A DNA stretch of 63,977 nucleotides, filler included, from an uncultured Myxococcia bacterium (lineage in GTDB: Bacteria > CAZTWC01): assembly GCA_964617105.1 (NCBI GenBank). It is 16 parts of 16 records of this genome, joined end to end, with 100 filler letters (N's around TTAATTAATTAA, not from the genome) between each part and the next. Parts side by side here need not be neighbours in the genome. Positions count along the whole stretch, not along the records: positions 24,607 to 28,567 come from CAZTWC010000336.1; 15 more parts are not named here. The stretch is one strand, 5' to 3'. Under the pieces are notes generated by a model. The model was not told the DNA's origin. It made no database searches and worked only from the letters and a program-made list of their open reading frames with translations. The translations under genes were made by a program, and so were the position numbers. This document shows positions 4,035 through 35,470 of this stretch, one piece after another; position 1 is the first letter of the stretch; every line of letters starts with the position of its first letter.

Positions 4035-4134
4035 NNNNNNNNNNNNNNNNNNNNNNNNNNNNNNNNNNNNNNNNNNNNTTAATTAATTAANNNNNNNNNN
4101 NNNNNNNNNNNNNNNNNNNNNNNNNNNNNNNNNN
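4035..4134. other. Artificial contig linker (N-run TTAATTAATTAA N-run). Others at 8158, 12262, 16352, 20430, 24507, 28568, 32615, 36651, 40666, 44671, 48580, 52482, 56363, 60230
   Basis: Identical 100-nt spacer with six-frame stops; flanking contigs decrease in length. Confidence 0.99.
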
Positions 4135-8157: not shown

Positions 8158-8259
8158 NNNNNNNNNNNNNNNNNNNNNNNNNNNNNNNNNNNNNNNNNNN
8201 NTTAATTAATTAANNNNNNNNNNNNNNNNNNNNNNNNNNNNNNNNNNNNNNNNNNNNCC

Positions 8260-9003
8260 AAGCATGTTAAAGTGATTGAGCATATACAGATCAAACTCAC
8301 TAAGATAAACCAGTATTTGACCGAGGTAAAAACCCTGGACAATAAATTGAGGGCTATTACCAGGTTAAACGATCCTGACCGGCATCTGGCCCTGGGTCCG
8401 ATTATGCATGAAAAAGAAGATTTAATGTCTGGTAAAAGACTAAATAGTGAAAAGATAATTATTAAGCAGGTACCCAAATTTTTTACCAATATAAATAAAA
8501 AAATGGCCCTGTTGCAAGACCGGCAGGCCTGGCTTCTGGGCCAAGCCGAGCAGCGGCAGGAAAGTATGAAACAGTTGGACAATTACTTTAAACAACGCAC
8601 CACCCTGTTATCATATACCCCTTCAATTTGGCCTGTTAGGGGATGGACAACCTCAGAATTCGGCATCAGGAGAGACCCTTATACATCCAGAGCCAGAATG
8701 CACCGAGGATTGGATATAGCTGCAGCAATTGGAACCACGGTCAACAGCCCTGCTGATGGACTGATAATTTTTACTGGAAAAGACGGCGCTTTTGGCAAAG
8801 TTGTGGTGGTTGACCATAAAAACAATATTATGACCCGATATGCTCATTTAAGTAGAATTGATGTTACTACGGGAGACCAGGTAAAACGGGGAGAACAGTT
8901 GGGTGCGGTAGGAAATACCGGTCGCAGTACGGGCCCCCATTTACACTATGAAGTATGGATTAACGGAATCCCAGAAAACCCAAGAAAATATATCCTTAAC
9001 TAG
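8260..9003 (+). CDS. M23 family metallopeptidase (5' partial)
   Basis: TPSIWPVRG, HRGLD, YAHL, GNTGRSTGPHLHYEV. Confidence 0.93.
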   Translation, partial: KHVKVIEHIQIKLTKINQYLTEVKTLDNKLRAITRLNDPDRHLALGPIMHEKEDLMSGKRLNSEKIIIKQVPKFFTNINKKMALLQDRQAWLLGQAEQRQESMKQLDNYFKQRTTLLSYTPSIWPVRGWTTSEFGIRRDPYTSRARMHRGLDIAAAIGTTVNSPADGLIIFTGKDGAFGKVVVVDHKNNIMTRYAHLSRIDVTTGDQVKRGEQLGAVGNTGRSTGPHLHYEVWINGIPENPRKYILN

Positions 9004-12261: not shown

Positions 12262-12361
12262 NNNNNNNNNNNNNNNNNNNNNNNNNNNNNNNNNNNNNNN
12301 NNNNNTTAATTAATTAANNNNNNNNNNNNNNNNNNNNNNNNNNNNNNNNNNNNNNNNNNNN

Positions 12362-16338: not shown

Positions 16339-16808
16339 TTTATTTGTTCTTNNNNNNNNNNNNNNNNNNNNNNNNNNNNNNNNNNNNNNNNNNNNTTAAT
16401 TAATTAANNNNNNNNNNNNNNNNNNNNNNNNNNNNNNNNNNNNNNNNNNNNTATTCTTGGGTTCCCATATCTCCTTTTGCTGGCCGACCAGATCGGCAGT
16501 AGAGCCAAATAAAATGGAAATGACTATTAGGGCCTGAAAAAAGTGTACCAACATAATGTTACTCCTTAGTTGCCGTCCGCGCCTCCACTTTTTGCTCCTG
16601 GTTCTCGCAACGAAGTGAATTATTGAACGATAACTTCTTAGGTTTAGCGGTACCCCTCTCACACCACCTTAGTATTTAATTTTTTTCGATTTTAACACGA
16701 ATCAATGTTAAAGGCAAAAATCAATATTGGTTTATTGGTTTAATTTATAGTATCCATCCGAGGAGTCAACCCGGGATTAAAATTCAGGAATTTTTTTCGT
16801 TCTTAAAT

Positions 16809-20429: not shown

Positions 20430-20619
20430 NNNNNNNNNNNNNNNNNNNNNNNNNNNNNNNNNNNNNNNNNNNNTTAATTAATTAANNNNNNNNNNNNNNN
20501 NNNNNNNNNNNNNNNNNNNNNNNNNNNNNTATGAATAGATAGTATCATATATGTATAGATTATGTCAAGCAGTTATTTGCCCCAGATGAGAAAAATCTAC
20601 TGCTGGAAGATCAACTTTA

Positions 20620-21255: not shown

Positions 21256-22511
21256 TATTTTGATCTACAAGGGCGAAACCCGAGCCAGTCGGTGCGGGTG
21301 CCGGGCGATTTGTTGCCGCGATTCGCCGAACGGCTGCTCAGAGCGTCGTGGGCCCAACTGCCACCGCGAGTCAGGCGGTAAAAGCCACTAGAAGGTCCCA
21401 CAGGGTCTGTTACATCTCCTCCATAACTTTTATCATACCAATCCCACGCCCACTCATAAACATTGCCACTCATGTCATATAATCCCCAGTCATTGGCATC
21501 CTTGCCTTTTACCACATGGGTGTAATCGCTTGAATTGTATTTATACCAACCTATCTTATCCATATTTGGATCACTACTGGTGCTGGTAATACCTCCATTA
21601 TAAAACGCCGTTGTCGTGCCCGCACGTACCGCATACTCCCACTCCGCCTCTGTGGGTAATCGATAACCACTGCAATCCTGTGGCTTGCTGAACTTGGACT
21701 TTAAACTGCATGTCAAACAAGTTAAATCACAATATCCTTCACCGCACGAGGCATGACTGCAATTACCTGCACATTCAAAACATTCTTCAACTCCTTTACT
21801 AATGGACAATTTGTTGCAATATAATAACGCCTCATGCCAATTCACCTTCTCCACCGGGCAATCATCTCCACAAGATAAATAATCGCTCGGATTATAGCCC
21901 ATCAATTTTTTGAACTGACCCTGCGTCACCTCGGTTGATTGTATCTCGAAGTTGTACGTCAACGTCACCTGGTGCTGAGTCTCATCCGATTCATTGGCCG
22001 CCTCGCCAGAGGGGCTGCCCATGGTGAAAGTACCAGCGGCGATCTTGACAAATACAGAGGTTGTATCACCTGAACCTCCTTCACAGTTCGCGTTATCATA
22101 CCCAGTACAGTCATTCTTGCACTTAGCATCTCCGCTTGTATATGTTGAATCTATGTCCTTACAACCCTTTGTGTCACCGTCGCATATTTCACTTTTGCCT
22201 TTATGACCATCTCCACACACTGTCTGGCATTTTGAATCCTTACATTGCAAGGGCTCAAAACAATCAGCAGTTTGGGAACAGGTATCACCCTCAACACTTT
22301 TTGTGTTTTTCGAGTTACCTTCTTCACATACACATATATCCCATCCACTTCCATCTGATTTACAGACCTGAACACCCTTTTTATAAGCAGTACAGTTACA
22401 GACCAGGGTTGAGCCTGGCGTACAAGCCTTGTCATCCTCAGTTCCGCAGTTTGCTAAAAACAGACTCAGAGCAATCAATAAAAACATTGTGAATGATTTT
22501 TGCATAATCAA
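21255..22511 (-). CDS. Cys-rich lipoprotein with FGE-sulfatase (CLec-fold) domain
   Basis: FLANC lipobox; AGTFTMGSP, TEVTQGQF, YRLPTEAEWEYA, NDWGLYDMSGNVYEW, RGGSW, GFR. Confidence 0.93.
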   Translation of the reverse strand: MIMQKSFTMFLLIALSLFLANCGTEDDKACTPGSTLVCNCTAYKKGVQVCKSDGSGWDICVCEEGNSKNTKSVEGDTCSQTADCFEPLQCKDSKCQTVCGDGHKGKSEICDGDTKGCKDIDSTYTSGDAKCKNDCTGYDNANCEGGSGDTTSVFVKIAAGTFTMGSPSGEAANESDETQHQVTLTYNFEIQSTEVTQGQFKKLMGYNPSDYLSCGDDCPVEKVNWHEALLYCNKLSISKGVEECFECAGNCSHASCGEGYCDLTCLTCSLKSKFSKPQDCSGYRLPTEAEWEYAVRAGTTTAFYNGGITSTSSDPNMDKIGWYKYNSSDYTHVVKGKDANDWGLYDMSGNVYEWAWDWYDKSYGGDVTDPVGPSSGFYRLTRGGSWAHDALSSRSANRGNKSPGTRTDWLGFRPCRSK

Positions 22512-22645
22512 GGCTCCTAATAATATTCCACATTAGTTGATATCAAGCATCAAGAATATCTCTAGTAATTACCATAATTACCGAAAAGTTTCAAACTCAT
22601 GAGTCTGTTACTCTAAATTGGCCCCACCTTTGATCAAATTCCGTT

Positions 22646-24506: not shown

Positions 24507-24796
24507 NNNNNNNNNNNNNNNNNNNNNNNNNNNNNNNNNNNNNNNNNNNNTTAATTAATTAANNNNNNNNNNNNNNNNNNNNNNNNNNNNNNNNNNNNNN
24601 NNNNNNATCGAACTTATCCGCTTTGGCAAGAAAATTGGCTATCATGCAATTCAAACTATAAATTGTTCAAAAGTGCCTGTATTCATTCATCTTTGCCTCC
24701 ATGAATTTTAAGCCATTCCTTTTGGTCCCGACTTAGTCCCGACCTGGGCATTATAGGTAAAAGCAGGAAAAGGGGGGGAATTAGTTTTTCGGACAC

Positions 24797-25519
24797 TTAT
24801 TTTTTTTTATTTATCACCAGGTCCAGTTCGTCCATAAAATTATGAAAGGCTTTTATCTTTCCTTGATCTTTGGTTGTTAAACATAGGGTGTCATAGTCGA
24901 TTTTATTAGTGATCTTATGAATATCATCTTTCCTCTTCTTGTATTTAAAGCTCACCAGGTTATAGATATCTTTTACAATATTGGCAGGGCGGTCATAGCG
25001 ATTCTCTGGATCGTCATTAACCAGGTCAACAGGCTTATTATGGTGGTTTAGATTCTTTTTTATATAGCCAGGTGTCAATCTGCTATCTATTTGTGAAAAA
25101 AGGTTGTGGTCAGCTAAAAACCATGCTTCGATCTCCATGGTGGCCAGAACAATTTTTACTTTATCGGTAGGGATTTGGTTGCGAATACTTATATAGAGTT
25201 TATTCTTATCCTCTCTCTGCACTTCTGGATAAACGTCTCTAATTCCAAATATTGCCTGAAATTTGGATTGGCCAGTCATTGCTTTCAGGTTTTCCTTAAT
25301 AACACTCACCACTTTTTCATCTGAACCTACATTAACCAGGAGAAAATAATAGTTATCACTTTTTCTGGTTTTAAACCTGTTTTTTGTTCCTAAAAAGGAC
25401 GGCCTCCCTCTTAAATTTATCTTGACTATTTGTCCCTGATATCCAATATGTTGTTGTAATAACTTCTCGATAAAAATCTGTTCTGTTTGTCCCTCCAAAA
25501 AAAAGGCGACTTTGATCAT
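24797..25519 (-). CDS. DUF4276-like TOPRIM-fold protein
   Basis: FFLEGQTEQ, GIRDVYP, MEIEAWFLAD; overlaps the upstream ATPase stop by 4 nt. Confidence 0.75.
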   Translation of the reverse strand: MIKVAFFLEGQTEQIFIEKLLQQHIGYQGQIVKINLRGRPSFLGTKNRFKTRKSDNYYFLLVNVGSDEKVVSVIKENLKAMTGQSKFQAIFGIRDVYPEVQREDKNKLYISIRNQIPTDKVKIVLATMEIEAWFLADHNLFSQIDSRLTPGYIKKNLNHHNKPVDLVNDDPENRYDRPANIVKDIYNLVSFKYKKRKDDIHKITNKIDYDTLCLTTKDQGKIKAFHNFMDELDLVINKKK

Positions 25520-26637
25520 TCACCTGCCTCCTCTTTGGTATGGAGAAAATTAGAGGAAAAAAAGGAAAAATTGTTTAGACCGGTGAATATAAATTCATCA
25601 AATGCTTTTTTGCTGTTTTTGTAATTATATGCCTTAACTATATGCCCCTCTCGTTCAAGAATATTCCAGTTTTCAATCGGAACTTTATTCATCAAAAAAC
25701 GGTCGTTGGTAGTAACAATCAGATTTAAACAGGAGTTGCCAATCTTGTTAAAAATAACTTCCGCCAATCGTGACGAACGCTCAAAGTCCAAACCCTCACC
25801 AAGATCGTCAATAATAATGGTTCCAGGTTTATTCTCGATTAGAAGATAGTTGATCACCGCCAAAATAGAGAATGCCCTGAACATACCAGCGGACATGGAT
25901 ACTTGATCGGTATGACACTGCAGATCTTTCTCTTTGACAGAGGCCATCAGTATATTTGGCGGTAGATTTGCCACCAGTTTTTGCCCTATTTTTATTTTTT
26001 CGACATTATAGCCAACTTTTTCCAGGTCATTAATAATCCCATCAATATAATCACCGCCATACTTGTTGGTACCACTTAGAAGCAGGGTAGGCACTGTAGA
26101 TAAACTTCGCAACATAGACTCTGATGCATTAGGGATGACTATATGATTTGGCCTGGCCGAGCTAAAAGTGTATGAGTAAACATTGACCGCCCAGTCATTT
26201 AATTCCTCTAAAAAGGGTAATACCTTCTTGTCTCTCTGAACATTGATAGCGAGTTTATCTTCCGGGGGAAAAAACGGATCCAGTTTACTGTTGCCGTTTT
26301 TAAAAAATCTGATTCTGGATTTACCATCTGCCCGGTCAATAAATTTTGTGTTTCTCAGTTTCAATGTTTCCAACTTAACTTTCTGATCCTGAATTACAAG
26401 TCTATACTTGTAATTGTCTTTACCTTTGGTAAATGTACATTGCCAGTCACCATTGGAATGGGGCCCTACTTTTCCGGATAGCAATGTAGCCAGGGCATTG
26501 ATCACATTCAGGCACCTGGTTTTTCCAGTGGCATTTTTTCCTGCCAAGAGGGTCTCTTTTTTTAGCTCAACACCTTCTAGTACCCATTCATTGGGTTGTC
26601 CCCGATGTTCAGAAAAATCTATTTGGGTTAAAAACAT
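25516..26637 (-). CDS. ABC/AAA_21-type ATPase
   Basis: Walker A GKNATGKT, signature SMSAGMFR, Walker B IIIDDLGEGLD, VTTN. Confidence 0.85.
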   Translation of the reverse strand: MFLTQIDFSEHRGQPNEWVLEGVELKKETLLAGKNATGKTRCLNVINALATLLSGKVGPHSNGDWQCTFTKGKDNYKYRLVIQDQKVKLETLKLRNTKFIDRADGKSRIRFFKNGNSKLDPFFPPEDKLAINVQRDKKVLPFLEELNDWAVNVYSYTFSSARPNHIVIPNASESMLRSLSTVPTLLLSGTNKYGGDYIDGIINDLEKVGYNVEKIKIGQKLVANLPPNILMASVKEKDLQCHTDQVSMSAGMFRAFSILAVINYLLIENKPGTIIIDDLGEGLDFERSSRLAEVIFNKIGNSCLNLIVTTNDRFLMNKVPIENWNILEREGHIVKAYNYKNSKKAFDEFIFTGLNNFSFFSSNFLHTKEEAGE

Positions 26638-26765
26638 CCAATTGTCCTTTGTTGTAGTCTCAATTTAATAGTTTCTTTTTCTATATAAATCCTATCTTAA
26701 CATTTAATCTAATTCTGGTAAATCAGTCATCTTCTCCGCTCTGGCGAGCAATTTTTGCAAATTAT

Positions 26766-26859
26766 AACCGCTGCTTTGATGTACTTGGCGCACTCTAGTC
26801 TTTAAATCAGATAAACAGTCTTTATATTCTTTCGATTGTAACGTTATTTCACTCCCCAT
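26766..26859 (-). pseudogene. DUF1016/YhcG-like N-terminal remnant
   Basis: MGSEITLQSKEYKDCLSDLKTRVRQV, then IKAAV in a shifted frame. Confidence 0.4.
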
Positions 26860-27129
26860 AACTCAAAACCTGAAAGTTTTTTATGAAACCATATTATACT
26901 CCATTTAGTAATTCATCTTACCAAACAATCACCAATTAAGCCAACAGTGTCCGCACTTTATAAATATTTGTCAGGCACCCTTTTTACCGCCTACCTACCG
27001 GTTGATTCTTTTCCTATTGCCCCATGTTGTTAACTGCTCTACTGTCAGCACCTCCAAAAACCTCCTATAAAACGGGTTAATATTTGGACCATCTTATAGG
27101 ATAAATTTGCTCGGGGGTGGTCAATTTCC

Positions 27130-27770
27130 TATGTGAATAGTCAACGAAATTGCTTAATATTTTATTTCGGAACAAATCATTTGTTTTTTTGACAAATAAC
27201 AGTCTCCTATCCGGGGTAGACACCTTAGTGTCTCCTCATTTTGCATGCTCCGCTTTTATCAAAAAAATGTTCTCTTCTTTTTTAGGCCGCCTTTTTATTC
27301 AATTCATACATTTGATTATTTTTTACCATTGCATAAATACGGCACAGCAACTTCCTGGCAACGGCTACTATTGCCCTTTTGCCACCTTTTTTGGCTTTAA
27401 GTTTTTTGTAAAAAGCATTCAAACCAGGATCACGTTTTATTGTTGTCCAGGATGCCTCTACCAATAATGCTCTTAGCCAGGGATTTCCTTGCCCCGTTAT
27501 CCTGCCTTTGTAATCATGTTCACCGCTTTGAATATTCTGATGGTGTTAAACCTGCAAAGGCTGAGATCTCTTTTTCATTATTAAATCTACTCCAGTCACC
27601 GATTTCATAGGTTAAGGCCGTTGCTGTCAGTGGACCTATGCCTGGTGCAGAACTAATTATTTTAAATTTCTTCTTTAACTCTTCTTCCTCTGGCCCTTTT
27701 TTGTAAATTCCATCAAATTGCTTAATTTATTTTTCAAAAAATTTGAGTTCTGAAATATTCATCATAGCAA
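27130..27770 (-). mobile_element. IS110-family remnant: C-terminal transposase half plus 3' non-coding end
   Basis: SAPGIGPLTATAL.YEIGDWSRF..FAGLTPSE..SG..GRITGQGNPWLRALLVEASW..AIVAVARKL; stops/frameshifts, no N-terminal DEDD domain. Confidence 0.85.
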
Positions 27771-28156
27771 CTCAGTTCAGCAAAATTCTGCGGTTTTTCC
27801 CAAGCCATAAAAGCCATCTGCTGGTTCATGCAAATGATATACAGGGGCACAGGATCCTGTTTGGCTTGCTTTTCCCGCCATTTTTTCAGGGCATCGTAGA
27901 CAGTCTTTTCCTGGTCGTCAAAAATAGTTCGCCAGTCTTTGATCTTTTTCTTGTCCACCGGATATCTTTTGCGTCCAAAATCATTTTCAACTTCCCGAAA
28001 AGTGATAATCAACATCAGATAGGGTTGTTTTTCATGAAAAAAGAAGTTGTCACTGACCGACAGCACTTCTTTATCCTTGATAAATTCCTGAACTTCATCG
28101 TCATTAAAATCAATGTTGTCAGGATTGAATTTGATCGTAAATACTTTAATTTTCAT
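27734..28156 (-). CDS. Stand-alone HRDC-domain protein of DGR-accessory type, C-terminally truncated
   Basis: VYDALKKWREKQAKQDPVPLYIICMNQQM..KPQNFAEL is an HRDC pattern lacking its final helices; lies directly after a CLec target gene. Confidence 0.8.
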   Translation of the reverse strand: MKIKVFTIKFNPDNIDFNDDEVQEFIKDKEVLSVSDNFFFHEKQPYLMLIITFREVENDFGRKRYPVDKKKIKDWRTIFDDQEKTVYDALKKWREKQAKQDPVPLYIICMNQQMAFMAWEKPQNFAELSCYDEYFRTQIF

Positions 28157-28370
28157 AGCACAACCCATAGTGGGAATAATGTAGTTTTAAAATTTTCGCG
28201 CGCGGCCTCCGGCCGAACACCACAATTATCTCCCTCGCCAATAAACCACCTTCGCTTACTCCAACCCCGCCCTCCATCCCCAGGAGGGATCTGAACTAAA
28301 GCTTGATCGAGACCCATCCTGGGGCTTCCGGGCTAATCGCTATTCACAAGGGTAAAAAACCAAAGTGTAA

Positions 28371-28391
28371 AGGTCGGCTTACGCACGACCT
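28371..28391 (-). promoter_or_regulatory. Hairpin at the target-gene stop; candidate DGR target-recognition stem-loop
   Basis: Minus strand AGGTCG-t-GC-GTAA-GC-CGACCT: 8-bp stem with one bulge and a GNRA loop. Confidence 0.55.
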
Positions 28392-28566
28392 AAGGCATTG
28401 ACCTCAAGAGCCTGAAACCGATGTAGTTGAAGCGGTAGCCGGGCGAGAAATTGTTGCGATCCGCCGAGCGGCAGTACCGGGCGTAGTTGCTCCAGATGCC
28501 CCCGCGTAGAACCCGGTACGAGCCACTTGAAAGCCCCACAGGATCGGTGGCATCGCCATTATAATT
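28390..28566 (-). CDS. 3' end of FGE-sulfatase/CLec-fold protein; putative DGR target with variable region (not in ORF track)
   Basis: Manual translation: NYNGDATDPVGLSSGSYRVLRGGIWSNYARYCRSADRNNFSPGYRFNYIGFRLLRSMP*. Confidence 0.88.
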   Translation of the reverse strand, partial: NYNGDATDPVGLSSGSYRVLRGGIWSNYARYCRSADRNNFSPGYRFNYIGFRLLRSMP

Positions 28567-28667
28567 TNNNNNNNNNNNNNNNNNNNNNNNNNNNNNNNNN
28601 NNNNNNNNNNNTTAATTAATTAANNNNNNNNNNNNNNNNNNNNNNNNNNNNNNNNNNNNNNNNNNNN

Positions 28668-32614: not shown

Positions 32615-32714
32615 NNNNNNNNNNNNNNNNNNNNNNNNNNNNNNNNNNNNNNNNNNNNTTAATTAATTAANNNNNNNNNNNNNNNNNNNNNNNNNNNNNN
32701 NNNNNNNNNNNNNN

Positions 32715-33262
32715 AAACTGAGTTGCAGGGAATTTATTATTTGATGGACTCGCTTGATGGCGCGGCGGAAGGTGTGTCTGGTTTTAGCCAGGATCACACA
32801 ATCATCCATGTATCTCAGGTAAAATATCTCTTCTTTGCGTCTCATGGTTACCATGGCATCATCTAAAGGTGATAGCATTACCGCAGCGAGAAGTGGGGAG
32901 AGGCTGCCCCCGGCAGTCATGCCGATGCCGGTATCATGAATATCCGGCTGGCTGAGATAGTCGATTACTACGGCGAGGTTTTGAGGAGACACTCCCATTT
33001 TCTTTAGGCGCTCCAACAGCACCTGGTGCTGTATGTTTTCATAATAGCGGGCTATATCGAAACGGGCTACGAATTTGTAGTCGCCGATATTTCTGGTTAA
33101 ACCTCCACCGTGGCCTTTTAGGTGGGTGCAGCAGCGGCATAACTTTCCGCTGATCTCTTTTTGCAGTGCCAGTCTTGTGGTTTGGAGAATGGAGCGGCTC
33201 CTATGGCTCCAGATTGTTAAAAGCCTGCCGTTATGTTGCCATTGGTTTTGAATTAACAGCAT
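32715..33262 (-). CDS. Reverse transcriptase (3' partial, probably degenerate; not DGR-type)
   Basis: RFDIARYYENI (RT3), GMTAGGSLSPLLA (RT4), YLRYMDD (RT5); CTHLKGHGG upstream; short N-terminus. Confidence 0.85.
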
Positions 33263-33562: not shown

Positions 33563-33826
33563 ATGCTCCTGGATACCGGCCAGGTGGCCAGCCAGGCTGA
33601 AATTGCTCGACGTCGCGGCATAAGCCGAACCCGGGTGACTCAGATTATGAAACTCCTTTTGCTGCCGGAGGAGGTTGTTAACGCTATTGAGGGCGGTGAT
33701 AAAAATGGTAATCATTGCAATATCAATGAAAGATACTTGCGTTCTCTTTTAAAAACCACCGATAAATCTTTGCAAATTAAACGATTTCAGGCGATGATCA
33801 ATTGTGGGTTCCCTCCAGATTATTAA
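33563..33826 (+). CDS. Small HTH protein of the type found in integrative-element recombinase modules; start uncertain
   Basis: LLDTGQVASQAEIARRRGISRTRVTQIMKLLLLP; the frame extends upstream (KIAEHLRQAREFK). Confidence 0.55.
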   Translation: MLLDTGQVASQAEIARRRGISRTRVTQIMKLLLLPEEVVNAIEGGDKNGNHCNINERYLRSLLKTTDKSLQIKRFQAMINCGFPPDY

Positions 33827-33866
33827 ACACCTCCCCCACGTCTTTGTTGAGGTGAAAACAAATTAC

Positions 33867-33932
33867 TTGACAAAAACACCACCATGTTACAAACTAATAC
33901 CAGATATGCATAACTACAATGCTTTTGTAACA
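33867..33932 (+). promoter_or_regulatory. abiE promoter with putative AbiEi operator inverted repeat
   Basis: TTGACA at 33867; TGTTACAAA (33885-33893) and TTTGTAACA (33924-33932) bracket 48 bp just upstream of ATG 33939. Confidence 0.65.
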
Positions 33933-33938
33933 CCCCGA

Positions 33939-34538
33939 ATGATAAGCCAAGAAGACAAAGTCAAACAATTTGCCAAGGAACACGGAATTTTTCGGTCCCA
34001 AATGATTGAGTCCATTGGGATCAACAGGATGACTCTGAAAAGGTTGGTAGACCAGGAGAAACTCCTTCGAATTTGCCGTGGACTTTATATGATGCCTGAT
34101 GCCAATATTTCAGAGTATTATGACATGATTAAGGTTGCCCGCCTTGTTCCTCGTGGAGTTATCTGTCTATTATCGGCCCTTCGTTTTTATGAGATGACCA
34201 CCGAGAACCCCTTTGAAATTTGGCTGGCCCATGAGTATGGCACCACACCTCCTCGTATAAAAACACCACCCATCAGATCGGTTAGATTTTCCCGGTCATC
34301 CTTCTCTTTTGGGATTCAGAATCACACTATCGACAAAGTGAAAGTGCTGATTACATCGCCAGCAAAAACAGTGGCAGATTGTTTTAAATTCCGCAACAAA
34401 ATTGGAATTGATGTGGCAATTGCCGCTTTGAAAGATTACCGGCAAAACCGGCTCGGGACCCTGGATGAATTATGGGAAGCAGCCAAAGTATGCAGAGTTA
34501 AAAAGGTGATCTTTCCTTATATGGAGGCCATAATTTGA
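33939..34538 (+). CDS. abiEi: Type IV toxin-antitoxin AbiEi antitoxin/transcriptional regulator
   Basis: LLRICRGLY, PRGVICLLSAL, TTENPFEIWLA, SPAKTVADCFKFRNKIGIDVA, CRV..PYMEA. Confidence 0.9.
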   Translation: MISQEDKVKQFAKEHGIFRSQMIESIGINRMTLKRLVDQEKLLRICRGLYMMPDANISEYYDMIKVARLVPRGVICLLSALRFYEMTTENPFEIWLAHEYGTTPPRIKTPPIRSVRFSRSSFSFGIQNHTIDKVKVLITSPAKTVADCFKFRNKIGIDVAIAALKDYRQNRLGTLDELWEAAKVCRVKKVIFPYMEAII

Positions 34539-35470
34539 CAGTAAAGAAAATTAAAAATATGGCAATGTCGGTTAAACAGCGTCTGTTAAATATCGCGAAG
34601 CAGCAAAATGAGGAATTTCAATACATTCTAGAAAGATATGTTCTGGAAAGATTTCTTTTCCGGCTGAGCCAATCACAATTTTGCAACCAATTTATCCTTA
34701 AAGGTGCTGCTCTTTTTATTTTGTGGCTAGAAAATCCTCACAGAACAACCAGAGATATTGATCTGTTGGGTTATGGAGCGCCAGATCTTTTACATATCCA
34801 AGATATTGTCTCAAAAATAGGCCAAATAAAGGTAGATGATGATGGTTTGAATGTTGATATATCCAGCATCAAGGTTTCGGCAATTCGAGAAGAACAGATA
34901 TATGACGGCGTAAGATGCACACTAAATGTTTATCTTGACCGGGCAAAAATCAATCTCCAGATCGATATCGGTTTTGGAGATTCGATTACTCCCGAACCAG
35001 AATTGATAAAATACCCAACCCTTTTGAATAGTAATTCTGCTCCTGAACTATTGGCATATAGAAAAGAAACTGTCGTTGCTGAAAAATTTCAAGCCATGAT
35101 AGATTTGGGTATGGCCAACAGCCGCATGAAGGATTTCTTCGATATCTATTTTTTAGCAGGTCATTTCTATTTTCATGGCCCCTCTCTTGCAGTTGCAATA
35201 AATGACACATTTAATCGAAGACAAACAGTTCTTCCAGCTGCACTGCCAAAATCGATTACATCTGATTTTCCTACCAGTAGTCAGAAAAAACTTCAATGGA
35301 AGAGTTTTTTAACGAAGACTAATGTCAGCAAAGAGGTCTCCTTAAAAGAGGTAATTGAAGAGATAGATAGATTTTTAGCCCCATTATTAACGACACTTGC
35401 CCAGAAAGAACCCATTGTTTTGAACTGGGAACCAGAAAGAAAAAAGTGGATAAACGGTTATTGGTGCTGA
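34535..35470 (+). CDS. abiEii: AbiEii nucleotidyltransferase toxin
   Basis: FILKGAAL, RTTRDIDL, QIDIGFGD, ETVVAEKFQAM, NSRMKDFFD. Confidence 0.92.
   Translation: MTVKKIKNMAMSVKQRLLNIAKQQNEEFQYILERYVLERFLFRLSQSQFCNQFILKGAALFILWLENPHRTTRDIDLLGYGAPDLLHIQDIVSKIGQIKVDDDGLNVDISSIKVSAIREEQIYDGVRCTLNVYLDRAKINLQIDIGFGDSITPEPELIKYPTLLNSNSAPELLAYRKETVVAEKFQAMIDLGMANSRMKDFFDIYFLAGHFYFHGPSLAVAINDTFNRRQTVLPAALPKSITSDFPTSSQKKLQWKSFLTKTNVSKEVSLKEVIEEIDRFLAPLLTTLAQKEPIVLNWEPERKKWINGYWC

What the first reader, a model, noticed from the sequence alone, without database searches (positions are those of the whole stretch)
27734..28566. Broken diversity-generating retroelement: VR-bearing CLec target, hairpin and HRDC accessory gene
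Seen: an unannotated FGE/CLec C-terminus whose variable positions are nearly all NNC codons (TAC, ATC, AGC AAC TAC, TAC, TTC, TAC, TTC AAC TAC; 28411-28518), including GGIW in place of GGSW. This fits adenine mutagenesis of AAC template codons. A GTAA-loop hairpin sits at the stop, a second CCCCAGGA/TCCTGGGG stem is at 28278-28324, and an HRDC gene follows. Established: CLec targets, downstream hairpins and hrdc accessory genes (as in Treponema denticola) are DGR hallmarks. An IS110 remnant lies where TR and RT would be expected. Inference: the cassette is dead or is served in trans.
Basis: partly seen in the sequence, partly recalled or inferred. Interest (0 to 1): 0.75.

Follow-up and report, generated by a model that had tools for sequence, protein, structure and literature searches.

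The report
Decayed DGR cassette at contig end
This is the tail of a protein-diversifying retroelement (DGR): a once-mutagenised target gene end, its hairpin and a helper gene, cut off from its enzyme and template by a deletion next to a dead transposase, an ordinary decay state.

Summary
The window is not one locus: it is 16 short contigs of one metagenome-assembled genome joined by N/TTAATTAATTAA linkers. The finding fills the last 0.8 kb of contig C336.

On the minus strand lie, in order:
- the last 59 codons of an FGE-sulfatase/C-type-lectin gene, cut by the contig end
- an 8-bp hairpin with a GTAA loop at the stop codon
- a small gene with an unnamed N-terminal domain plus HRDC, truncated at about codon 135
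- the frameshifted 3' half of an IS110-family transposase

Four adenine-rich, non-coding template-repeat (TR) copies lie elsewhere in the genome. Where three of them agree, the variable region (VR) differs at 14 of 31 adenine columns and at 1 of 64 other columns (Fisher p 1.6e-7). That is the DGR signature.

Intact relatives read target–HRDC–Avd–RT–TR, so Avd, RT and TR are missing exactly where the IS110 remnant begins. No assembled TR matches the VR at all non-adenine sites (6–11 mismatches of 112). The cognate RT survives only as a 156-residue fragment.

Verdict: a genuine but degraded HRDC-type DGR locus, probably frozen. It is a new member of a known kind, of modest interest.

The parts
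28390..28567 (-). 3' fragment (59 codons plus TAG stop at 28390-28392) of a DGR target gene of the FGE-sulfatase / C-type-lectin-fold type. It is cut at 28567 by the end of contig C336.
   Evidence: Translation. Pfam FGE-sulfatase E 7.5e-6, profile 210-255 of 255. Contig map. Full-length paralogues on C69 (505 aa) and C335 (425 aa) are lipoprotein-like, Cys-rich proteins with a C-terminal FGE domain.
28415..28526 (-). Variable region (VR) core, 112 nt.
   Evidence: Aligns without gaps to TR copies on C121 and C484, and to C476 apart from that copy's 19-nt insertion. The VR differs at 14 of 31 TR-invariant A columns against 1 of 64 non-A columns. Codon view.
28393..28414 (-). 3' end of the VR homology, possibly IMH-like. 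The VR reads ...TGAGGTCAATGCC, where the TRs on C121 and C476 read TGAATTCA(T/A)TGCAAC.
   Evidence: Alignments. The same TGAGGTCAATGCCTTAG end occurs in the C69 target. The IMH function is inferred, not tested.
28371..28391 (-). Hairpin/cruciform-type inverted repeat: 8 bp, one bulged T, loop GTAA. It overlaps the last two bases of the stop codon.
   Evidence: strand folding: -7 kcal/mol, z -2.46, 5 of 200 shuffles as good. Position and 4-nt loop size fit Guo et al. 2011 (PMC3240598, passages read). The loop GTAA departs from their GRNA consensus at position 2.
28278..28324 (-). Second inverted repeat, CCCCAGGA...TCCTGGGG, in the 220-bp spacer before the HRDC gene.
   Evidence: Present, but z -1.3 and 23 of 200 shuffles fold as well. 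No role is assigned.
27734..28168 (-). Accessory gene with an unnamed N-terminal beta-alpha-beta-beta domain plus HRDC. It is truncated: the native part runs from 28156 (MKIKV...) to about 27773 (...FAEL). The last 12 codons and the stop are junction-derived.
   Evidence: Pfam HRDC E 2.8e-8, profile 2-49 of 68. A 191-aa relative, P0003 (70% identity), has the full domain, profile 2-68 of 68. AF2 model of P0003 has pLDDT 87, and its HRDC part matches RecQ HRDC 1wud at Z 14.1.
27727..27772 (-). Junction between the truncated HRDC gene and the IS110 remnant; origin of these 46 nt is unknown.
   Evidence: Frame readings. Contigs in 4 of 4 public runs bridge the junction. The same ...AELSCYDEYFRTQIF end is in protein cluster P0002.
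27285..27726 (-). 3' half of an IS110-family transposase gene, with one frameshift near 27540. The N-terminal catalytic domain is absent.
   Evidence: Pfam Transposase_20 profile 2-46 of 87 (E 9.9e-13) and 44-87 of 87 (E 8.3e-9) in two frames.

Best explanation
The region is the target-proximal end of a diversity-generating retroelement (DGR) of the HRDC-containing type, with ancestral order target(VR)-HRDC-Avd-RT-TR.

While intact, it would have worked as follows. RNA from the A-rich template repeat was copied by the RT, with Avd and the HRDC protein, into cDNA in which template adenines are read at random. That cDNA replaced the VR at the 3' end of a secreted or lipoprotein-like C-type-lectin-fold protein. 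The VR's 3' end and the hairpin at the stop codon guided the replacement. This recoded about 14 Asn (AAC/AAT) template codons into Tyr, Phe, Ile, Ser and Asp.

A later deletion fused codon ~135 of the HRDC gene to the middle of an IS110-family transposase gene. That removed the end of HRDC and all of Avd, RT and TR. The locus is now an inactive remnant with a frozen VR.

Shown: the VR signature, the gene identities, the truncation, the reality of the junction in DNA, and the architecture of intact relatives. Inferred: the retrohoming mechanism (from the Bordetella phage paradigm), the role of the hairpin, the order of events, and that the VR is no longer diversified.
For: - VR signature: 14 of 31 A columns changed against 1 of 64 non-A columns where three TR copies agree, p 1.6e-7. 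The codon view shows AAC changed to TAC/ATC/AGC/TTC.
- Gene identities: FGE-sulfatase, HRDC and IS110 Transposase_20 by Pfam. The HRDC fold is confirmed on the full-length relative.
- Truncation: the 191-aa relative P0003 carries the full HRDC domain, while the window's protein stops matching at profile position 49 of 68.
- Expected order: L020 (Magnetococcales MAG) and L009 read target(VR)-HRDC-Avd-RT-TR. Their TR/VR mismatches are 22 A against 3 non-A over 137 nt, and 12 A against 1 non-A over 99 nt.
- Junction is real DNA: contigs of 4 of 4 public runs (2 studies) bridge 27727-27772 with 0-1 differences. An independent protein cluster carries the same junction peptide.
- No cis or matching trans parts: nothing DGR-like lies in the 3.1 kb of C336 beyond the junction. 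The VR differs from the TRs at 8 (C121), 11 (C484) and 6 (C476, plus a 19-nt insertion) non-A sites of 112. C167 is more distant, with 21 non-A mismatches of 103.
- Cognate RT: it exists only as residues 1-156 on C121. The closest full-length RT in the 5.8-billion-protein collection is 66% identical.
- Precedent: incomplete DGR loci degraded by transposons are described in Thiohalocapsa PB-PSB1 (PMC10907252, passages read).
Against: - The assembly is fragmented (489 contigs, 96.5% complete). Repeats such as TR/VR and paralogous RTs are the parts most likely to be missing, so 'no intact cognate RT or TR' means not found, not absent.
- The VR is almost undrifted at non-A sites (1 of 64), the visible target frame is open and the hairpin is intact. 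Any loss of function is therefore recent, or function continues in trans.
- Only assembled contigs of public runs could be laid on the region, not reads. Low-frequency VR variants could not be seen.
- The different cassette remnants may belong to co-binned strains. Depths differ: about 3-4.6 for this junction against 6-10 for a paralogous HRDC.
Confidence: 0.75

Rival explanations
1. The locus is incomplete in cis but still diversified in trans. The RT, Avd and full-length HRDC would come from another cassette, either unassembled or present in a structural variant within the population. A TR copy elsewhere would supply the template.
For: - The VR matches the TR-family consensus at 63 of 64 invariant non-A columns.
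- The hairpin and the open frame are kept.
- Four TR copies persist. At least C121, C476 and C484 keep a conserved hairpin just 3' of the TR, with a loop GTTYACGRAYT and stems that differ in sequence.
- Two full DGR RTs exist in the genome, on C219 and C435.
- Trans-diversification of incomplete loci is documented in Thiohalocapsa PB-PSB1 (PMC10907252).
Against: - By that paper's criterion (the VR matches a TR at all non-A sites), none of the four TRs qualifies: 6-11 non-A mismatches of 112, and the best TR has a frame-breaking 19-nt insertion.
- The two intact RTs are a different clade (about 32-36% identity to the C121/L009/L020 clade). At least C219 has its own, unrelated Asn-rich TR-like stretch directly upstream.
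- No full-length RT closer than 66% to the C121 fragment was found in the protein collection.
- VR contigs from two runs are identical to the window. This is weak evidence, because contigs hide minor variants.
Confidence: 0.19
2. There is no DGR relationship. This would be an ordinary FGE-sulfatase paralogue whose Tyr/Asn-rich C-terminus resembles a VR by chance, lying next to an unrelated HRDC gene.
For: - FGE-sulfatase domains are common, and the genome has several paralogues.
- The hairpin is only modestly better than shuffles.
Against: - The A-specific difference pattern against non-coding TR copies has p 1.6e-7.
- The TR copies have stops in the matching frame upstream and lie next to Avd, RT and HRDC fragments.
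- The same VR-HRDC adjacency occurs in intact DGRs L009 and L020.
Confidence: 0.03
3. The HRDC/IS110 junction is an assembly chimera, and the real locus is intact.
For: - The source is a short-read metagenome bin with many 55-mer forks at contig ends.
- HRDC paralogues exist that could mislead an assembler.
Against: - Independent per-run contigs in 4 of 4 runs cross the junction with at least 31 nt on both sides and 0-1 differences.
- A separately predicted protein cluster (5 member sequences) carries the same junction peptide.
- The runs may include the source sample, so independence is limited.
Confidence: 0.03

Closest known systems
HRDC-containing DGRs ('Architecture C', represented by the Treponema DGR) in the survey of Wu et al., Nucleic Acids Res 2017/2018 (PMC5758913; passages read)
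   Same: - A C-terminal VR in a C-type-lectin/FGE-fold target, with an HRDC accessory gene beside it.
- In relatives (L009, L020) and in the paralogous remnant on C121, HRDC occurs together with avd. The survey reports this for about half of its 14 HRDC DGRs.
- The avd-RT-TR order is also one of the survey's listed core arrangements (B2).
   Different: - Here the cassette lacks Avd, RT and TR, and the HRDC gene is truncated.
- The accessory protein has an extra N-terminal domain of about 85 aa with no Pfam family (60 of 60 relatives hit only HRDC).
- I could not compare it with the Treponema protein itself.
Incomplete or degraded DGR loci of Thiohalocapsa sp. PB-PSB1 (Doré et al., PNAS 2024, PMC10907252; passages read)
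   Same: - One genome holds several paralogous DGR loci.
- Redundant components are degraded by transposons or repeats.
- Some loci are left as target-only or partial cassettes.
   Different: - There, several incomplete loci have VRs that match a TR elsewhere at all non-A sites, and population data show them diversified.
- Here no such TR was found and diversification could not be tested.
- The accessory gene set (HRDC) and the host lineage differ.
Bordetella phage BPP-1 DGR target recognition elements (Guo et al., PLoS Genet 2011, PMC3240598; passages read)
   Same: A GC-containing stem of 7-10 bp with a 4-nt loop, placed a few bases after the end of VR homology and at the stop codon.
   Different: - The loop is GTAA, not the GRNA consensus.
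- The stem has a bulge and only moderate stability.
- Function was not tested.
- The paralogous targets on C69 and C335 show no comparable hairpin.

Membership tests
Diversity-generating retroelement (DGR) | A TR/VR repeat pair whose differences fall almost only at TR adenines | tested here: met
   Against the consensus of three TR paralogues, 14 of 31 A columns and 1 of 64 non-A columns differ. Against any single assembled TR, 6-11 non-A mismatches of 112 remain. The family signature is therefore met, but the exact donor TR was not found.
Diversity-generating retroelement (DGR) | A DGR-clade reverse transcriptase (motif 4 I/LGxxxSQ) in the cassette | tested here: not met
   There is no RT on contig C336. 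In the genome, RVT_1 hits fall at 4 places:
- C219 and C435 carry IGNLTSQ but belong to a different clade.
- C121 holds a 156-residue fragment of the cognate clade.
- C338 is a UG4-type RT.
The locus is a remnant, not a complete DGR.
Diversity-generating retroelement (DGR) | An accessory gene (avd and/or HRDC) adjacent to the target or TR | tested here: met
   An HRDC gene lies 220 bp downstream of the VR (Pfam E 2.8e-8). It is truncated. There is no avd on this contig.
Diversity-generating retroelement (DGR) | The VR lies at the C-terminus of a C-type-lectin/FGE-fold (or Ig-like) target protein | tested here: met
   FGE-sulfatase profile positions 210-255 of 255 are matched, and the VR ends 22 nt before the stop.
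Diversity-generating retroelement (DGR) | Target recognition elements: IMH at the VR 3' end and a downstream hairpin with a 4-nt GRNA loop | tested here: inconclusive
   The hairpin has a 4-nt loop and z -2.46, but the loop is GTAA. The VR and TR 3' ends differ (GAGGTCAATGC against GAATTCAATGC), as IMH and IMH* do. Function is untested.
Diversity-generating retroelement (DGR) | VR hypervariability within a population | not testable with these tools
   Only assembled contigs of public runs were available. Two runs carry the identical VR. Contigs drop minor variants.
HRDC domain proteins (PF00570) | The five-helix HRDC fold with a profile match over the curated cut-off | tested here: met
   The window protein scores 34 bits (cut-off 23.8) but covers only profile positions 2-49 of 68. 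The relative P0003 scores 63.7 bits over 2-68 of 68. Its AF2 model matches RecQ HRDC 1wud_A at Z 14.1, rmsd 1.2 over 77 residues.
IS110-family insertion sequence | A complete transposase: N-terminal DEDD catalytic domain plus C-terminal Transposase_20 | tested here: not met
   Only Transposase_20 is present, split by a frameshift. No N-terminal domain lies between it and the HRDC gene. It is a remnant.

The most novel reading that the evidence does not exclude
The genome runs a 'hub-and-spoke' DGR network. After cassette duplication, the shareable parts (RT, Avd, HRDC) were lost by deletions and IS insertions. Each TR, with about 25-60 nt of leader and its conserved 3' RNA hairpin, was spared, because a TR is the one part that cannot be shared between different VRs.

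The upstream truncations end at very different points:
- Avd codon ~37 on C167 (weak match only)
- Avd codon ~62 on C476
- RT residue ~156 on C121
- an IS200-like gene on C484

Yet in all four remnants the TR follows within tens of bases. This would reflect either selection for orphan TR modules used in trans by one surviving RT, or a mechanistic deletion hot spot at the RT/TR border. On this reading the window's VR is still diversified from a TR module not yet assembled.
Probability: 0.15. Interest if true: 0.55.

Novelty: new member of a known kind. Interest (0 to 1): 0.3.

Why it matters
It matters modestly.

- It adds a clear case of DGR decay in an uncultured marine bacterium. One genome holds at least four target-type genes, four TR copies, three HRDC genes and three Avd genes or fragments. 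It also holds a broken cognate RT and two RT-MutS_I genes of another clade.
- This is material for asking which DGR parts are kept when cassettes multiply. TR modules and VRs persist; enzymes go.
- It shows that the HRDC accessory protein belongs to a large two-domain family whose N-terminal domain has no name (689 cluster representatives at E 1e-10 or better).
- It is a caution for the scan. Windows built by concatenating contigs make genes look 'unannotated' or 'broken' at linkers.

Tried and rejected
- Genome-wide screen for TR/VR pairs: all-vs-all blastn of the 4.07-Mb assembly, keeping hits with at least 7 mismatches of which at least 75% fall at A or T. It gave 5 rows. One was the C476/C336 pair. 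The C128 rows turned out to be a dispersed palindromic intergenic repeat with dozens of copies, not a DGR. The other two were 52-54-nt hits that I did not pursue.
- Relatives of the HRDC protein in 40 other genomes: only one weak hit to the HRDC part. All 'relatives' were merely 'same domain', so there is no close kin to compare.
- Single-protein scan of genome contigs: 47 pattern hits, none confirmed. The alignment-based rescans gave the useful loci.
High-depth loose ends at 28461-28516 come from other organisms' conserved FGE cores.
- Promoter/terminator scans around the VR, the HRDC gene and the C121 TR: counts were no better than shuffles, so they are not informative.
- Rfam search of the C121, C484 and C336 loci: no family at E 0.1 or better.
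- Hairpins after the VR-like ends of L009, L020, C69 and C335: none stood out from shuffles over the stretches folded. Hairpin conservation could not be used as support.
- Fold of the N-terminal domain of the HRDC protein: only Z 4-4.6 matches to assorted small alpha/beta domains, so no assignment. That domain was not folded and searched on its own.
- Search of earlier findings of this scan: nothing on this genome.
- Bridging by contig-end 55-mers: C336's VR end overlaps no other contig, so the rest of the target gene was not recovered.
Full report
**What the window is.** The 63,977-base window is not a continuous locus. It consists of 16 whole contigs (3.6-4.0 kb each) of one metagenome-assembled genome (489 contigs, 4.07 Mb, 96.5% complete, 3.35% contamination). 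The contigs are joined by N44-TTAATTAATTAA-N44 linkers. The finding occupies the last 0.8 kb of contig C336 (window 24607-28567). The linker at 28568-28667 and the rpoC fragment after it belong to another contig. So the target gene looks 'unannotated' because only its last 59 codons were assembled.

**Anatomy on the minus strand.**
- 28566..28390 encodes ...NYNGDATDPVGLSSGSYRVLRGGIWSNYARYCRSADRNNFSPGYRFNYIGFRLLRSMP*. This is the C-terminal end of an FGE-sulfatase / C-type-lectin-fold domain (Pfam E 7.5e-6, profile 210-255 of 255).
- An 8-bp hairpin with one bulge and a GTAA loop lies at 28371-28391 and overlaps the TAG stop. It gives -7 kcal/mol, z -2.46, and 5 of 200 shuffles fold as well.
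- The CCCCAGGA/TCCTGGGG repeat at 28278-28324 is present but no better than shuffles (z -1.3; 23 of 200).
- A 141/144-codon gene at 28156/28168..27734 has an HRDC domain (E 2.8e-8), but only profile positions 2-49 of 68.
- Its closest full-length relative, P0003 (191 aa, 70% identity), has the whole domain. The window protein loses homology after ...EKPQNFAEL (about 27773) and ends in 12 unrelated codons.
- From 27726 to 27285 lie two pieces of an IS110-family Transposase_20 domain in different frames (E 9.9e-13 and 8.3e-9). The N-terminal catalytic half of the transposase is absent.
- Further on are an AbiLi-like AAA_21 ATPase and a DUF4276 gene. Nothing else DGR-like is on the contig.

**Is the C-terminus a real variable region?** Yes. 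A blastn of the region against the genome found A-rich copies on C121 (8789-8976), C484 (151-338) and C476 (1172-1378). A more distant copy lies on C167 (~115-235).
- These copies are non-coding, with stops just upstream in the matching frame. They would read GSNRVKRGGSWNNNA(K/Q)NCRSANRNNNSPGNRNNNLGFR, which is the classic look of a template repeat.
- In the 112-nt core (window 28415-28526), I took the columns where the three close TRs agree. The VR differs at 14 of 31 adenine columns and at 1 of 64 other columns (Fisher p 1.6e-7).
- The TRs differ among themselves at 17 columns. Only 5 of these involve A, so that is ordinary divergence.
- The VR's 3' end (TGAGGTCAATGCC) differs from the TRs (TGAATTCA(A/T)TGCAAC) and is shared with a paralogous target on C69. 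IMH and IMH* differ in this way in known DGRs. That function is inferred.

**What should follow the HRDC gene.** An alignment-based scan found four loci with a match covering both domains of the protein.
- L020 (a Magnetococcales MAG) reads target(VR)-[N-domain+HRDC]-Avd-RT-TR. Its Avd scores bAvd E 1.2e-20 and its RT carries IGNLTSQ. TR/VR mismatches are 22 at A and 3 elsewhere over 137 nt.
- L009 reads VR-HRDC-Avd-RT-TR, with 12 A and 1 non-A mismatches over 99 nt.
- L013 has HRDC next to a DGR RT.
- L015 has a frameshifted HRDC next to a TR/VR-like repeat.

So in C336 the missing parts are the last ~55 codons of HRDC plus Avd, RT and TR.

The HRDC/IS110 junction is not an artefact of this bin. 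Per-run contigs in 4 of 4 public marine/seawater runs (2 studies) cross it with 0-1 differences. An independently predicted protein cluster, P0002, ends in the same junction peptide. One of those runs may be the source sample, so independence is limited.

**Could it be served in trans?** The genome holds other pieces of the same element family, and all are damaged.
- C121: HRDC C-terminus (at the contig end), a full Avd (bAvd E 8.4e-15), RT residues 1-156 only, then the TR.
- C476: Avd residues 1-62 (bAvd E 3.9e-5, below the cut-off), then a TR with a 19-nt insertion.
- C484: a truncated HRDC, an IS200-like Y1 transposase, then the TR.
- C167: a ~37-residue Avd-like start (bAvd E 0.22, weak), then the TR.

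None of these TRs matches the VR at all non-adenine sites. In the 112-nt core the non-A mismatches are 8 (C121), 11 (C484) and 6 plus the insertion (C476). C167 has 21 of 103. No TR has any partner in the assembly with one or fewer non-A mismatches.

The only full DGR-type RTs are on C219 (504 aa) and C435 (partial, 415 aa). They share about 32-36% identity with the cognate clade. At least C219 has its own, unrelated Asn-codon-rich stretch just upstream.

A search of the 5.8-billion-protein collection for long relatives of the C121 RT fragment found nothing closer than 66% identity.

By the criterion used for trans-acting DGRs in Thiohalocapsa PB-PSB1 (the VR equals a TR at all non-A sites; PMC10907252, passages read), trans service is not supported here. 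It is not excluded either. The assembly is fragmented. The VR is almost undrifted at non-A sites. Only contigs, not reads, of public runs could be laid on the VR; two runs carry the identical VR.

**Mechanism.** The best-supported account is standard mutagenic retrohoming, now switched off. TR RNA is reverse-transcribed with random incorporation opposite adenines. The cDNA then replaces the VR, guided by its 3' end and a nearby hairpin. Guo et al. 2011 describe 7-10-bp stems, a 4-nt GRNA loop and a position 4-34 bp from the VR (PMC3240598). The hairpin here fits in size and place, but its loop is GTAA.

The HRDC protein is a nucleic-acid-binding accessory factor of unknown role. Its family is large: 5,060 cluster representatives at E 1e-3 or better and 689 at 1e-10 or better. 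It has a conserved N-terminal beta-alpha-beta-beta domain with no Pfam family; 60 of 60 relatives hit only HRDC. The AF2 model has pLDDT 87, and the HRDC part matches RecQ HRDC at Z 14.1. The N-terminal part had no match above Z 4.6, and it was not searched alone.

**Comparison with what is known.**
- HRDC-containing DGRs are the rare 'Architecture C': 14 of 372 DGRs, about half of them also with avd (PMC5758913, passages read).
- The avd-RT-TR order and RTs with a MutS_I tail (three cases) are also described there.
- Decay of redundant DGR parts by transposons is described for PB-PSB1.

The locus is therefore a new member of a known kind, in a known state of decay.

**What remains curious.** In all four TR-bearing remnants the upstream damage ends within tens of bases of the TR. 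The segment just 3' of the TR also keeps a hairpin with a conserved loop (GTTYACGRAYT). Its stems differ in sequence between C121/C476, C484 and L009. That alignment has only four sequences, so covariation support is thin. The pattern could mean that TR modules are retained for use in trans. I give this 15%.

**Verdict.** Observation confirmed. Interpretation supported, with 'dead' more likely than 'served in trans'. Interest is modest (0.3).

Noticed in passing
whole window; linkers at 4035-4134, 8158-8257, 12262-12361, 16352-16451, 20430-20529, 24507-24606, 28568-28667, 32615-32714 and onward: The window is 16 whole contigs of one MAG, sorted by length and joined by N44-TTAATTAATTAA-N44 linkers. 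Any feature that abuts a linker is cut by assembly, and neighbours across a linker are not neighbours in the genome.
   Followed up: yes
window 21258-22532 (-), VR-like part about 21274-21387 (contig C335 729-2003): A complete 425-aa lipoprotein-like, Cys-rich FGE-sulfatase protein (Pfam E 2.9e-45). Its C-terminal 38 codons are VR-like: against the TR family it differs at 16 of 31 A columns and 9 of 64 non-A columns. No accessory gene or hairpin follows it. It is a paralogous, possibly former or remote DGR target. A close paralogue is on C69.
   Followed up: partly
genome contigs C219 155-1666 (+) and C435 1138-2382 (-), outside the window (loci L001, L002): Two DGR-type RTs (IGNLTSQFYANLY) of a second clade. 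C219 has a C-terminal MutS_I domain (Pfam E 1.6e-10). C435 aligns with it to its C-terminus (71% identity to residue 499 of 504) but was not scanned with Pfam. C219 has an Asn-codon-rich TR-like stretch (...NAWNVNFNNGNVNWNNKTNNNY) directly upstream at C219 ~60-170. No VR partner was found in the assembly. RT-MutS_I fusions are reported for three RTs in PMC5758913.
   Followed up: partly
genome contigs C121 ~8606-8790, C476 ~1007-1190, C484 1-170; loci L009 2198-2373, L020 10031-10208: Directly 3' of the TR there is a conserved ~180-200-nt segment. It holds a hairpin whose loop (GTTYACGRAYT) is conserved while the stem sequences differ (6 pairs with a both-sides change in one sequence each). 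It ends in a long GC stem, followed by a T-run in most copies. It may be the counterpart of the spacer region that primes cDNA synthesis in the Bordetella phage DGR; that comparison is recalled, not tested. No Rfam family matched.
   Followed up: partly
public runs, laid on window 27813-28021: A paralogous HRDC gene (about 87% identical) is present at higher depth (6-10 against 3-4.6). It breaks at 27813 into unrelated sequence, giving a protein end ...NQQMALIGPTTT* identical to cluster P0004. It is another differently truncated HRDC copy in the same population, and it matches the C121 HRDC up to the break.
   Followed up: partly
window 24797-26637 (-): An AAA_21 ATPase (PADLOC AbiLi E 1.1e-18; AriA 1.8e-10) overlaps a DUF4276 protein (PADLOC HEC-01B E 1.8e-8). 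This is a candidate two-gene anti-phage defence pair next to the DGR remnant.
   Followed up: partly
window 32715-33262 (-), 33798-34535 (+), 34502-35467 (+) (contig C338): An RT fragment cut by the contig start is of the UG4 (DRT) class (PADLOC E 8.2e-40), not DGR-type. Downstream on the other strand is an AbiEi/AbiEii type IV toxin-antitoxin pair (Pfam E 9.9e-12 and 5.4e-40).
   Followed up: partly
genome contig C128 1169-1290 and dozens of other contigs: A dispersed, roughly 120-bp palindromic intergenic repeat (REP/MITE-like) with more than 25 copies. It showed up as a false TR/VR candidate in the A-bias screen.
   Followed up: partly
genome contig C476 between TR codons ...TGT CGC and TCG GCG: This TR copy carries a 19-nt insertion that would shift the frame of any VR copied from it. 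It is otherwise the TR closest to the window's VR.
   Followed up: yes
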